This document shows, one piece after another, positions 35,801 to 37,498 of a stretch of 64,000 nt of DNA. Location of the stretch: the NCBI RefSeq assembly GCF_048403405.1, contig NZ_CP183129.1; one strand, written 5' to 3'. Position numbers: made by a program. This DNA is from Escherichia coli. GTDB lineage: Bacteria > Pseudomonadota > Gammaproteobacteria > Enterobacterales > Enterobacteriaceae. Every line of letters begins with the position of its first letter. Position 1 is the stretch's first letter.

Positions 35801-37498
35801 GACTGAAAAACAAAGCCTACGTGCTTCGCGCGCAACTTTGCCCGCGCTTCTTCGTCCATATTATGTAGTGGTTGTCCCACCAGACTCACTTCGCCACTGC
35901 TGCCGTCATCCAGCCCGGCGAGGATCGCCAGCAAGGTTGACTTACCCGATCCCGACTCGCCCACCAGTGCGATGGTCTCGCCACGTTTGACAACCAGCTC
36001 AACTCCGGTGAGGATGGAGAGTTCATGCTCCCCCTGACCGACGGACTTCTTAAGATGATGAACTTCAACAATGTTTTCCGCTGGCATTTGCCCTTCCTGT
36101 TCCTGGTCCTGTTAACCTTCCGTGCCGCCGCAGCGGACACGTTATTGATTCTGGGTGATAGCCTGAGCGCCGGGTATCAAATGTCTGCCAGCGCGGCCTG
36201 GCCTGCCTTGTTGAATGATAAGTGGCAGAGTAAAACGTCGGTAGTCAATGCCAGCATCAGCGGCGACACCTCGCAACAAGGGCTGGCGCGCCTTCCGGCT
36301 CTGCTGAAACAGCATCAGCCGCGCTGGGTGCTGGTAGAACTGGGCGGCAATGACGGTTTGCGTGGTTTTCAGCCACAACAAACCGAGCAAACGCTGCGCC
36401 AGATTTTGCAGGATGTCAAAGCCGCCAACGCTGAACCATTGTTAATGCAAATACGTCTGCCTGCAAACTATGGTCGCCGTTATAATGAAGCCTTTAGCGC
36501 CATTTACCCCAAACTCGCCAAAGAGTTTGATGTTCCGCTGCTGCCCTTTTTTATGGAAGAGGTCTACCTCAAACCACAATGGATGCAGGATGACGGTATT
36601 CATCCCAACCGCGACGCCCAGCCGTTTATTGCCGACTGGATGGCGAAGCAGTTGCAGCCTTTAGTAAATCATGACTCATAAAGCAACGGAGATCCTGACA
36701 GGTAAAGTTATGCAAAAATCGGTCTTAATTACCGGATGTTCCAGTGGAATTGGCCTGGAAAGCGCGCTCGAATTAAAACGCCAGGGTTTTCATGTGCTGG
36801 CAGGTTGCCGGAAACCGGATGATGTTGAGCGCATGAACAGCATGGGATTTACCGGCGTGTTGATCGATCTGGATTCACCAGAAAGTGTTGATCGCGCAGC
36901 CGACGAGGTGATCGCCCTGACCGATAATTGTCTGTATGGGATCTTTAACAATGCCGGATTCGGCATGTATGGCCCCCTTTCCACCATCAGCCGTGCGCAG
37001 ATGGAACAGCAGTTTTCTGCCAACTTTTTCGGCGCACACCAGCTCACCATGCGCCTGTTACCCGCGATGTTACCGCACGGTGAAGGGCGTATTGTGATGA
37101 CCTCATCGGTGATGGGATTAATCTCCACGCCGGGTCGCGGCGCTTACGCAGCCAGTAAATATGCGCTGGAGGCGTGGTCGGATGCGCTGCGCATGGAGCT
37201 GCGCCACAGCGGAGTTAAAGTTAGCCTGATCGAACCCGGTCCCATTCGTACTCGCTTCACCGACAACGTCAACCAGACGCAAAGTGATAAACCAGTCGAA
37301 AATCCTGGCATCGCCGCCCGCTTTACGTTGGGACCGGAAGCGGTGGTCGACAAAGTGCGCCATGCTTTTATTAGCGAGAAACCGAAGATGCGCTATCCGG
37401 TAACGCTGGTGACCTGGGCGGTAATGGTGCTCAAGCGCCAGCTGCCGGGGCGCGTGATGGACAAAATATTGCAGGGGTGAGTTGAAGCGCGCGCTTAA

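What the first reader, a model, noticed from the sequence alone, without database searches (positions are those of the whole stretch)
36055..36087. Divergent tesA and ybbA coding regions overlap at their 5' ends by 33 bp
The tesA start (ATG 36055) lies inside the first 11 codons of ybbA on the opposite strand (ybbA start 36087). The promoters and RBS of each gene must therefore lie within the other's coding sequence, which implies mutual transcriptional interference or antisense coupling between the thioesterase and the ybbAP ABC transporter.
Basis: seen in the sequence. Interest (0 to 1): 0.25.

Follow-up and report, generated by a model that had tools for sequence, protein, structure and literature searches.

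The report
tesA–ybbA head-to-head gene overlap
Two E. coli genes whose proteins work together (the TesA lipid hydrolase and the YbbA ATPase of its ABC transporter) really do overlap head-to-head by 30–33 bases, a conserved arrangement that is already annotated and already listed in published antisense-RNA surveys.

Summary
tesA (+, ATG 36055, or 36058 in RefSeq/PGAP) and ybbA (−, ATG 36087) overlap by 33 (or 30) nt in exact antisense codon register. The ybbA start cannot be moved downstream, because there is no alternative start codon and the ABC fold needs residues from about 5 onward. The tesA start at 36055/36058 is supported by conservation. At least one of the two ATGs is present in all 20 Enterobacterales genera examined, and the opposing YbbA His codons are always CAT. 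Synonymous variation collapses only in the overlap, and the rival starts (TTG 36088, ATG 36025) are not conserved. Across 79 gammaproteobacterial loci the two genes are always divergent neighbours, and 22 loci share a CATG start-codon palindrome. The long overlap is an Enterobacterales extension that encodes only the n-region of TesA's cleaved signal peptide. Published data already show overlapping transcripts here: a Lybecker dsRNA locus, p19-captured RNase III products, antisense reads at or above sense reads across tesA, and an ExcludonFinder listing. A conserved TTGACA-17-nAGGAT promoter for tesA lies inside ybbA. Whether the overlap has any regulatory effect is untested, and RNase III mutants show no change in tesA mRNA. 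Verdict: real, conserved, already known, of modest interest.

The parts
36055..36087 (.). Head-to-head CDS overlap of tesA and ybbA. It is 33 nt from the first tesA ATG and 30 nt from the second (36058). The codons are in exact antisense register.
   Evidence: It has the lowest third-position entropy in both genes, synonymous variation is suppressed, and it is invariant in 99.6% of E. coli genomes.
36055..36681 (+). tesA CDS (thioesterase I / protease I / lysophospholipase L1; SGNH/GDSL hydrolase), 208 aa precursor. The alternative annotated start is 36058.
   Evidence: PDB 1IVN and 9GE8 chain T match residues 27-208.
36055..36132 (+). TesA signal-peptide coding region (residues 1-26, cleaved). 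The overlap covers only its n-region (residues 1-11, MMNFNNVFRWH).
   Evidence: The mature chains in PDB start at A27, ADTLLILGDS. Non-enterobacterial TesA homologues have shorter signal peptides that start at the CATG junction.
35401..36087 (-). ybbA CDS (ABC ATPase of the type VII transporter YbbAP), 228 aa. ATG 36087 is the only usable start.
   Evidence: It is the only start codon between the upstream stop and the Walker A region in most Enterobacterales, and in Photorhabdus and Providencia the ORF begins exactly at this ATG. LolD, MacB and MJ0796 NBD structures align from residue 5-10.
32990..35404 (-). ybbP (permease), translationally coupled to ybbA through a 4-nt ATGA overlap at 35401-35404.
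36671..37480 (+). ybbO, downstream of tesA in the same direction. Its start overlaps the tesA 3' end by 11 nt.
   Evidence: PMC12646458 calls this a putative tesA-ybbO operon.
36091..36098 (-). ybbA Shine-Dalgarno AGGAAGGG, embedded in tesA codons 13-15.
   Evidence: Read from the sequence. Duplex energy with the anti-SD is -7.0 kcal/mol.
35987..36015 (+). Candidate tesA promoter inside ybbA codons 24-34: -35 TTGACA (35987-35992), 17-nt spacer, -10 GAGGAT (36010-36015). The predicted TSS is about 36022.
   Evidence: Loose scan. It keeps its position in 20/20 Enterobacterales genera as T(T/C)GACA-17-nA(G/A)(G/T)AT. It is the best conserved promoter-like site on either strand over 1.1 kb (mean 8.75/12, next best 5.85). 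Two 4-fold-degenerate Val codons under the -35 are invariant. The edge of Lybecker's dsRNA locus maps to 36024. There is no direct TSS evidence.
36024..36149 (.). dsRNA locus MS-118 ('Divergent', tesA,ybbA) of Lybecker et al. 2014, converted from U00096.2 518895-519020.
   Evidence: Row quoted in Table S1e of PMC7373196. Conversion used: window = 555044 - x.
36087..36552 (.). Region of p19-captured RNase III dsRNA products: cluster S-52 (518684-518957) plus individual 21-22-nt duplexes out to 518492. It marks antisense RNA running across the tesA body towards ybbA.
   Evidence: PMC7373196 Tables S1b, S1c, S1e and S3.
36655..36655 (-). Reported 5' end ('P 518389') of the + strand K-12 transcription unit that ends after ybbP ('T 522176'). 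This would be a ybbAP mRNA with a ~568-nt leader antisense to almost all of tesA.
   Evidence: Columns in the PMC7373196 Table S1e row, attributed by inference to the Conway 2014 operon map. No good consensus promoter lies upstream.
35866..35866 (+). Other end of the reported 789-nt divergent transcript overlap (519178). It is inferred to be a distal tesA transcript 5' end, 189 nt upstream of the ATG. A -10-like TATTAT is at 35859-35864.
   Evidence: The -10 is not conserved across genera.
36025..36027 (+). Upstream in-frame ATG with a strong SD (-8.4 kcal/mol). This rival tesA start would give a 218-aa product and a 63-nt overlap.
   Evidence: It is absent in Citrobacter FP75 and C. youngae. 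Rahnella has a TAG stop directly before ATGATG.
36088..36090 (+). TTG (tesA codon 12). This rival start is used by some gene callers, gives a 197-aa product and removes the overlap.
   Evidence: It is TGG in C. werkmanii and C. youngae and CTC in Rahnella, and it would leave a 15-aa signal peptide with no charged n-region.

Best explanation
The overlap is a real, evolutionarily fixed head-to-head overlap between two functional genes whose products form one complex (YbbA2-YbbP-TesA). Shown: ybbA starts at 36087 and nowhere else. tesA starts at one of the adjacent ATGs 36055/36058. The shared 30-33 nt are read in both directions in exact antisense register and are under dual purifying selection. 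On the tesA side they encode only the n-region of a signal peptide that is cleaved off. On the ybbA side they encode the first beta-strand region of the ABC domain. Shown comparatively: tesA and ybbA are divergent neighbours with essentially no spacer throughout the Gammaproteobacteria, often sharing a CATG start palindrome. The 30-33-nt overlap (45-78 nt in Pectobacterium and Brenneria) arose in Enterobacterales when the tesA start moved about 10 codons upstream onto ATGs that are the antisense of ybbA His10/His11 codons. Consequence (partly shown, partly inferred): the two transcription units are interlocked by face-to-face promoters. The tesA promoter lies inside ybbA, most likely the conserved TTGACA-17-GAGGAT with a TSS near 36022. 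ybbAP transcripts start inside or beyond tesA. The 5' parts of the two mRNAs are therefore complementary, form dsRNA in vivo and are cut by RNase III, according to published datasets. Inferred: the arrangement chiefly locks the two partner genes together, because neither can be moved without losing its promoter. It may also give some antisense or occlusion coupling of their expression, but no strong regulatory effect has been demonstrated.
For: Anatomy. ybbA start: it is the single ATG 48 codons before the Walker lysine in all Enterobacterales, with the ORF beginning exactly there in Photorhabdus and Providencia, and homologous NBD structures align from residue 5-10. tesA start: at least one of the two ATGs is present in 20/20 genera. 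YbbA His10/11 are CAT in 34/34 cases, against CAT 110: CAC 64 elsewhere in the same genes. The mature protein starts at A27. Dual constraint. Deep conservation: ybbA is divergent and adjacent in 80/80 loci. Of 79 loci measured, 46 overlap (22 with CATG, 20 with 30-33 nt), 24 have a gap of 60 nt or less, and 9 have a larger gap. Promoter. Overlapping transcripts and dsRNA: ExcludonFinder lists tesA-ybbA among 16 divergent excludons found in at least 50% of 58 transcriptomes. PMC7373196 reports tesA p19-dsRNA at 1589-2396 RPM against about 20-90 RPM for its neighbours, tesA antisense 48.7 vs sense 29.7 RPM, cluster S-52 typed "5' & Full", the Lybecker MS-118 'Divergent' locus, and a 789-nt divergent overlap. 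Partner proteins and a statement that the operons overlap: PMC12646458.
Against: I could not reach any direct TSS or initiation-site measurement for either gene. INRI-seq shows zero signal at both annotated starts, a 5'-RACE-type attempt on ybbA gave no product, and the mature TesA N-terminus says nothing about the initiator codon. No convincing consensus promoter for ybbA was found inside tesA. My attribution of the '518389/519178/789' columns to the Conway operon map is inferred from the table layout. Low synonymous variation at gene 5' ends can also reflect translation-initiation constraints. The 20 genera are not phylogenetically independent, so the p-values are indicative only. RNase III mutants show no change in tesA sense RNA, so a regulatory role for the dsRNA is unsupported.
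Confidence: 0.8

Rival explanations
1. Annotation artefact on the tesA side. The true tesA start would be TTG 36088, immediately after the ybbA start codon, so the coding sequences abut and do not overlap. The conservation of 36055-36087 would then reflect ybbA coding plus the tesA 5' UTR and RBS.
For: TTG 36088 is in frame, is used by some gene callers (197-aa products), and sits where the tesA ATG lies in Vibrio-type CATG loci. The SD before ATG 36055/58 is weak (-3.2 kcal/mol). INRI-seq saw no initiation at the annotated start.
Against: The TTG is not conserved: it is TGG in C. werkmanii and C. youngae, CTC in Rahnella, and TTA, TTT, ATC or GTA in other Enterobacterales. Its SD is even weaker (-0.9). 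It would leave a 15-residue signal peptide with no basic n-region. In Photorhabdus, Rahnella, Budvicia and Providencia the next downstream start codons fall inside the hydrophobic core. An in-frame ATG is kept at the upstream position in 20/20 genera, with CAT chosen over CAC in 34/34 cases.
Confidence: 0.07
2. The tesA start is further upstream at ATG 36025, which has a strong SD. This would give a 218-aa precursor and a 63-nt overlap.
For: The ATG at 36025 is preceded by GGAGAG (-8.4 kcal/mol), the best SD of all candidates, and is present in most Enterobacteriaceae. Several gene callers choose it (218-aa products).
Against: The codon is CTG in Citrobacter FP75 and TTG in C. youngae. Rahnella has a TAG stop directly upstream of ATGATG. 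Outside Enterobacteriaceae the position is variable. The ATG and SD are simply the antisense of ybbA codons H21-L26. The SD lies inside the -10 of the conserved candidate promoter, so it would not be transcribed from it. The Lybecker dsRNA edge is at 36024. It would also give an unusually long 21-residue n-region.
Confidence: 0.05
3. The overlap is real but functionally neutral. In this view it is a frozen accident of start-codon drift in a compact locus, the antisense RNA and dsRNA are by-products with no effect on expression, and conservation reflects only the double coding load and the fact that interlocked genes are hard to separate.
For: tesA sense RNA is unchanged in rnc-14 and rnc-38 mutants. 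The partner proteins would not benefit from mutual exclusion. Spacing varies freely among lineages: overlaps of 2, 30-33 and 45-78 nt, and gaps of 10 to more than 400 nt. No shared operator-like palindrome is present.
Against: The near-zero spacing is kept across very distant Gammaproteobacteria (70 of 79 loci within 60 nt), and a promoter embedded at synonymous sites is conserved. This shows selection on the embedded signals, although not on antisense regulation as such. This rival overlaps with the best explanation, which also treats regulation as unproven.
Confidence: 0.35

Closest known systems
Divergent 'excludons' and 5'-overlapping divergent mRNA pairs in E. coli (e.g. asd-yhgN in Huang et al. 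2020; acrA-acrR and epmB-efp in ExcludonFinder 2025); the concept comes from Listeria (own knowledge)
   Same: The genes are neighbours on opposite strands and their transcripts overlap at the 5' ends. dsRNA forms and is processed by RNase III. tesA-ybbA is itself listed in these catalogues.
   Different: Here the coding sequences themselves overlap, not only the UTRs. The two products are subunits or partners of one complex, not functionally opposed. No reciprocal expression has been shown, and rnc mutants do not alter tesA RNA.
Short overlaps between bacterial genes (co-directional ATGA/TGATG type), such as ybbA/ybbP and tesA/ybbO in this same locus
   Same: Both reflect a compact genome architecture and arise by start or stop codon shifts. 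Both are conserved among relatives.
   Different: Co-directional overlaps allow translational coupling on a single mRNA. A head-to-head overlap involves two different mRNAs, cannot couple translation, and forces each promoter and RBS into the partner's ORF. From my own knowledge, not tested here, head-to-head is the rarest orientation class of gene overlap.
Bidirectional (back-to-back) promoters with shared symmetric -10 elements (Warman et al., bioRxiv 10.1101/2020.01.31.928960, listed)
   Same: A divergent gene pair is served by a very compact control region.
   Different: The geometry is the opposite. Each promoter lies beyond the other gene's start, so the promoters face each other and the transcripts overlap. 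In the back-to-back case the transcripts would diverge from a common point.
Other type VII ABC transporter loci in E. coli (macAB, lolCDE, ftsEX) (introduction; gene orders from own knowledge)
   Same: The ABC transporter is encoded next to the partner protein that defines its function.
   Different: In those systems the partners are generally co-directional operon members, or unlinked as for envC and lolA. In YbbAP-TesA the partner is encoded divergently with overlapping starts.

Membership tests
Head-to-head (divergent) overlapping protein-coding gene pair | Two bona fide protein-coding genes on opposite strands | tested here: met
   TesA matches PDB 1IVN and 9GE8_T, and YbbA matches PDB 9GE6-8. 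Homologues carry SGNH/GDSL Pfam domains. RefSeq annotates both genes.
Head-to-head (divergent) overlapping protein-coding gene pair | The start codon of each gene lies inside the coding sequence of the other | tested here: met
   The ybbA start is unambiguous. The tesA start at 36055/58 is supported by conservation, CAT-only codon choice and signal-peptide logic, but has no direct initiation-site measurement.
Head-to-head (divergent) overlapping protein-coding gene pair | Both reading frames are under selection in the shared segment | tested here: met
   Synonymous variation is suppressed from both gene perspectives, third-position entropy is at its minimum in both genes, and the segment is 99.6% invariant within E. 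coli.
Excludon (overlapping antisense transcription units giving mutually exclusive expression) | Transcripts of neighbouring opposite-strand genes overlap | tested here: met
   From published data only: ExcludonFinder Table 1, the Lybecker dsRNA locus and the 789-nt divergent overlap quoted in PMC7373196, and tesA antisense reads at or above sense reads.
Excludon (overlapping antisense transcription units giving mutually exclusive expression) | dsRNA is formed and processed by RNase III | tested here: met
   p19-captured 21-22-nt duplexes with RNase III signatures are spread across tesA, which reaches 1589-2396 RPM in the Illumina replicates. This is published data, not my own measurement.
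Excludon (overlapping antisense transcription units giving mutually exclusive expression) | Reciprocal (mutually exclusive) expression, or opposed functions, of the two genes | tested here: not met
   The products are partners in a 2:1:1 complex. tesA sense RNA is 29.7 RPM in WT and 27.2 and 27.4 RPM in rnc mutants. Both genes are expressed at similar low levels in the same samples. No condition-dependent anticorrelation data were available.
Bidirectional back-to-back promoter | Divergent TSSs a few tens of bp apart, with both genes downstream of a shared promoter region | tested here: not met
   The starts overlap, so each TSS must lie beyond the other gene's start. The candidate tesA promoter at 35987-36015 is inside ybbA.
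Sec-type signal peptide on TesA (relevant to which start is used) | A basic n-region, a hydrophobic core, an AxA-type cleavage site, and a mature N-terminus downstream | tested here: met
   In MMNFNNVFRWH-LPFLFLVLLTF-RAAA|ADTLL, the mature chains begin at A27 and R9 supplies the n-region charge (read from the sequence). No signal-peptide predictor was available, so this was judged by inspection.

The most novel reading that the evidence does not exclude
The zero-spacer, interlocked tesA/ybbA junction (a CATG shared start in many Gammaproteobacteria, extended to 30-78 nt in Enterobacterales) could be an ancient, selected cis-antisense module and not merely compact gene packing. Each mRNA's RBS and start codon is complementary to the other's, so pairing would silence both, with RNase III clearing the duplex. 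That would set or buffer the ratio of the periplasmic hydrolase to its ABC transporter, or make one promoter's firing occlude the other. It would be a conserved antisense circuit operating between two subunits of one machine.
Probability: 0.12. Interest if true: 0.5.

Novelty: already known. Interest (0 to 1): 0.22.

Why it matters
This locus is a clean, well-conserved example of two partner genes whose promoters and ribosome-binding sites are embedded in each other. It has three practical consequences. Gene callers disagree on the tesA start, giving products of 189 to 218 aa. Any deletion, tag or promoter swap at the 5' end of either gene will damage the other, which matters for the widely engineered 'leaderless TesA' and for ybbA/ybbP knock-outs. 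The interlock also explains why tesA and ybbAP stay together across the Gammaproteobacteria, a linkage that recently helped identify TesA as the YbbAP partner. It does not open a new biological question unless the antisense overlap proves to control the stoichiometry of the complex.

Tried and rejected
1. The strict sigma-70 consensus scans of 35600-36600 and 36400-37600 found nothing. Only a looser, conservation-aware scan gave the tesA promoter candidate, and no convincing ybbA promoter emerged.

2. Direct TSS data could not be reached. Thomason 2015 is not held. Conway 2014 and ExcludonFinder have no supplements stored. The Cappable-seq GTF is truncated before 519 kb or has no entries there. 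Mendoza-Vargas 2009 tried ybbA and got no product. Shimada 2014 lists only a promoter downstream of ybbP, for rhsD.

3. Initiation-site data were not informative. INRI-seq shows zero signal for both genes. The TRAINSPOTTER supplements do not contain either gene. No supplement is held for the Ribo-RET preprint.

4. No operator-like inverted repeat lies at the junction. The putative tesA leader has no special RNA structure (z = +0.93).

5. The next start codon is a GTG 7 codons before the Walker lysine, and the NBD fold begins at residue 5-10.

6. I considered filing the pair as a classical excludon and rejected membership, because reciprocal expression and opposed function are not met.
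Full report
**What is there.** The window is E. coli chromosome. A 601-nt probe around the finding is 100% identical to strain ST2747 and is present in 5417 of 5426 complete genomes. On the + strand, ORF 36025..36681 contains ATG ATG at 36055-36060 and translates to MMNFNNVFRWHLPFLFLVLLTFRAAA|ADTLLILGDS..., which is TesA. On the − strand, ORF 36087..35401 translates to MPAENIVEVHHLKKSVGQGE...GESGSGKS..., which is YbbA. The two coding sequences share 36055-36087, or 33 nt. RefSeq/PGAP starts tesA at the second ATG (36058), giving 30 nt. The codons are in exact antisense register. The tesA ATG is the complement of ybbA codon 11 (CAT), and the ybbA ATG is the complement of tesA codon 11 (CAT). 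First positions of one gene therefore face third positions of the other.

That is excluded. In E. coli the only in-frame start codons upstream of the Walker A motif are ATG 36087 and a GTG seven codons before the Walker lysine. In most Enterobacterales the ATG is the only candidate, and in Photorhabdus and Providencia the ORF begins exactly at it. It has a good SD, AGGAAGGG at 36091-36098 on the − strand, with −7.0 kcal/mol. Solved NBDs of LolD, MacB and MJ0796 align with YbbA from residue 5-10 onward, so the fold needs this N-terminus.

**Is the tesA start right?** There are four in-frame candidates:
- ATG 36025, with a strong SD (−8.4 kcal/mol)
- ATG 36055
- ATG 36058
- TTG 36088

Public gene calls use all of them, giving products of 218, 208, 207 and 197 aa. 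Mature TesA begins at A27 in PDB 1IVN and 9GE8, so protein sequencing of the mature enzyme cannot decide between them.

Comparative data can. I compared 20 Enterobacterales genera (loci).
- At least one of the two adjacent ATGs is always present. The second is universal in Enterobacteriaceae. The first is ACG in Superficieibacter, Enterobacter Bisph1 and Mangrovibacter. Photorhabdus keeps only the first.
- The opposing YbbA His codons are CAT in 34 of 34 cases and never CAC, which would turn ATG into GTG. His codons elsewhere in the same genes split 110 CAT to 64 CAC.
- TTG 36088 is replaced by TGG, CTC, TTA, TTT, ATC or GTA in various genera. It would also leave a 15-residue signal peptide without a basic n-region.
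- ATG 36025 is CTG or TTG in two Citrobacter species, and Rahnella has a TAG stop directly before ATGATG.

I conclude that tesA starts at 36055 and/or 36058, and that the overlap is 30-33 nt. No direct initiation-site measurement was reachable. INRI-seq shows no signal for either gene.

**Dual constraint.** Among the 20 genera, all 54 conserved degenerate codons in ybbA codons 41-110 vary synonymously, but only 3 of 8 do so in codons 2-11 (Fisher p = 9e-6). For tesA the figures are 2 of 6 in codons 1-11 against 115 of 115 in codons 21-208 (p = 2e-6). The 7-codon window with the lowest third-position entropy in each whole gene is the overlap itself (0.31 and 0.29, against gene means of 1.24 and 1.27). 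Within E. coli, the 61 nt centred on the overlap are identical in 5398 of 5417 genomes. Two control segments are identical in 2503 of 5416 and 724 of 5407 genomes. These tests are not phylogenetically corrected, and the 5' ends of genes carry other constraints too. The signal is nevertheless strong and consistent from both gene perspectives.

**Deep history.** I built a diverse TesA alignment and used it to fetch 80 gammaproteobacterial loci. In all of them a ybbA homologue lies divergently next to tesA. I measured geometry from fixed motifs, the Walker A lysine codon and the GDS glycine codon, so that it did not depend on gene calls. With conservative start assignment, the 79 measurable loci break down as follows:

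| Junction type | Loci |
|---|---|
| Overlapping starts, total | 46 |
| — CATG shared by the two start codons (2-nt overlap) | 22 |
| — 30-33 nt overlap | 20 |
| Gap of 60 nt or less (CATATG, CATnATG; Pseudomonas CATGGAGAATCCGATG) | 24 |
| Larger gap | 9 |

The CATG loci include Vibrio, Photobacterium, Psychromonas, Rheinheimera, Dokdonella, Cycloclasticus and a Halomonas. A zero spacer is therefore ancestral. The Enterobacterales overlap is a derived extension in which the tesA frame reads about 10 more codons into ybbA. Pectobacterium and Brenneria even carry a 48-nt insertion inside the overlap that lengthens both proteins, giving a 45-78 nt overlap. On the tesA side the shared codons encode only the n-region of a signal peptide that is removed, which explains why the overlap is tolerated.

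**Transcription.** Because the starts overlap, each RBS and promoter must sit in the partner's ORF. A loose scan found TTGACA(35987)-17-GAGGAT, predicting a TSS near 36022. This element keeps its position in 20 of 20 genera as T(T/C)GACA-17-nA(G/A)(G/T)AT, with the −10 A2 and T6 invariant. It is by far the best position-conserved promoter-like site on either strand over 1.1 kb (mean 8.75 of 12, next best 5.85). It also coincides with the second-lowest synonymous-entropy window of ybbA, which includes two invariant 4-fold-degenerate Val codons. No comparable ybbA promoter was found.

Published data fill in the rest.
- PMC7373196 reports p19-captured RNase III dsRNA for tesA at 1589-2396 RPM in the Illumina replicates, against about 20-90 RPM for its neighbours.
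- The same paper reports total-RNA antisense reads of 48.7 RPM against sense reads of 29.7 RPM for tesA. For ybbA the figures are 0.5 against 21.7.
- Its cluster S-52 is typed "5' & Full". It is cross-referenced to Lybecker's dsRNA locus MS-118 "Divergent" (window 36024-36149), to a Dornenburg antisense TSS (window 36059, − strand), and to a 789-nt divergent overlap with a promoter at K-12 518389 (window 36655) and a terminator after ybbP.
- ExcludonFinder lists tesA-ybbA among 16 divergent excludons found in at least half of 58 transcriptomes.
- PMC12646458 states that the tesA-ybbO and ybbAP operons partially overlap, and shows that the proteins form a 2:1:1 YbbA:YbbP:TesA complex.

**How it most likely works.** It is shown that two real genes have overlapping 5' coding ends and that both frames are under constraint. 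Published datasets show that the transcripts overlap and yield RNase III-processed dsRNA, and that the antisense is mainly over tesA. It is inferred that the promoters face each other, with the tesA promoter in ybbA codons 24-34 and ybbAP transcripts starting within or at the far end of tesA.

Any regulatory consequence is only inferred. tesA sense RNA is unchanged in two rnc mutants, the junction holds no operator-like palindrome, and the leader is unstructured. Mutual exclusion also makes little sense for partners in one complex. I therefore favour an interlocked architecture whose main evolutionary effect is to keep the two partner genes together. Antisense or occlusion coupling remains an unproven possibility.

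**Comparison and novelty.** The pair meets the structural criteria of a head-to-head overlapping gene pair. It meets the transcript-overlap and RNase III criteria of an excludon but not the reciprocal-expression criterion. It is the geometric opposite of a back-to-back bidirectional promoter. The overlap is in standard annotation and has been noted or catalogued in at least four publications, so the finding is already known. The breadth of conservation, the CATG junction and the conserved embedded promoter are small additions from this analysis, and I did not find them described in the papers I could read.

Noticed in passing
L023-L081 (e.g. L042 junction TGTAGTCATGATACGT); no window equivalent: In 22 non-enterobacterial gammaproteobacterial loci the tesA and ybbA start codons share a 4-nt palindrome, CATG (a 2-nt overlap). 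Several others have CATATG or CATnATG. In Pseudomonas, CATGGAGAATCCGATG offers both a CATG start and a downstream ATG that uses GGAG as its SD.
   Followed up: partly
L013 (Brenneria) and L014 (Pectobacterium), around locus position 2500: A 48-nt insertion lies inside the tesA/ybbA overlap and lengthens both the TesA signal-peptide n-region and the YbbA N-terminus. The overlap there is 45-78 nt, depending on which ybbA ATG is used.
   Followed up: partly
window 36178-36180: TesA residue 42 is Gln (CAA) in this strain, where K-12, the PDB chains and most Enterobacteriaceae have Arg (CGA). It lies just after the catalytic GDSLSAGY motif.
   Followed up: no
window 36059 (- strand): A published antisense TSS (Dornenburg 2010, quoted in PMC7373196) maps inside ybbA codon 10, 28 nt downstream of the ybbA ATG. 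A weak but position-conserved -10-like AACATT lies upstream. A transcript from here would lack the ybbA start, and its role is unknown.
   Followed up: partly
window 36671-36681 and 35401-35404: These are ordinary co-directional overlaps in the same locus. The ybbO start overlaps the tesA 3' end by 11 nt, and the ybbP start overlaps the ybbA stop by 4 nt (ATGA). The last 7 codons of ybbA also show reduced synonymous variation.
   Followed up: partly
window ~37541-38394 (cnoX), ~43800-64000 (siiEA adhesin plus type I secretion genes), ~28359-32561 (Rhs core protein): In the 100%-matching ST2747 record, cnoX is annotated as frameshifted and the giant BapA-related adhesin siiEA as a frameshifted pseudogene next to its T1SS genes. 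An RHS element lies just downstream of ybbP. I did not verify that the window matches this record outside the 601-nt probe.
   Followed up: no
window 36538-36558 and 36622-36642: Two further stretches of low synonymous variation lie inside tesA (codons 162-168 and 190-196). They are near the most distal p19 dsRNA duplex (~36528-36552) and the reported ybbAP transcript 5' end (~36655). They may be embedded signals for the antisense or ybbAP transcript, but no consensus promoter was recognisable.
   Followed up: partly
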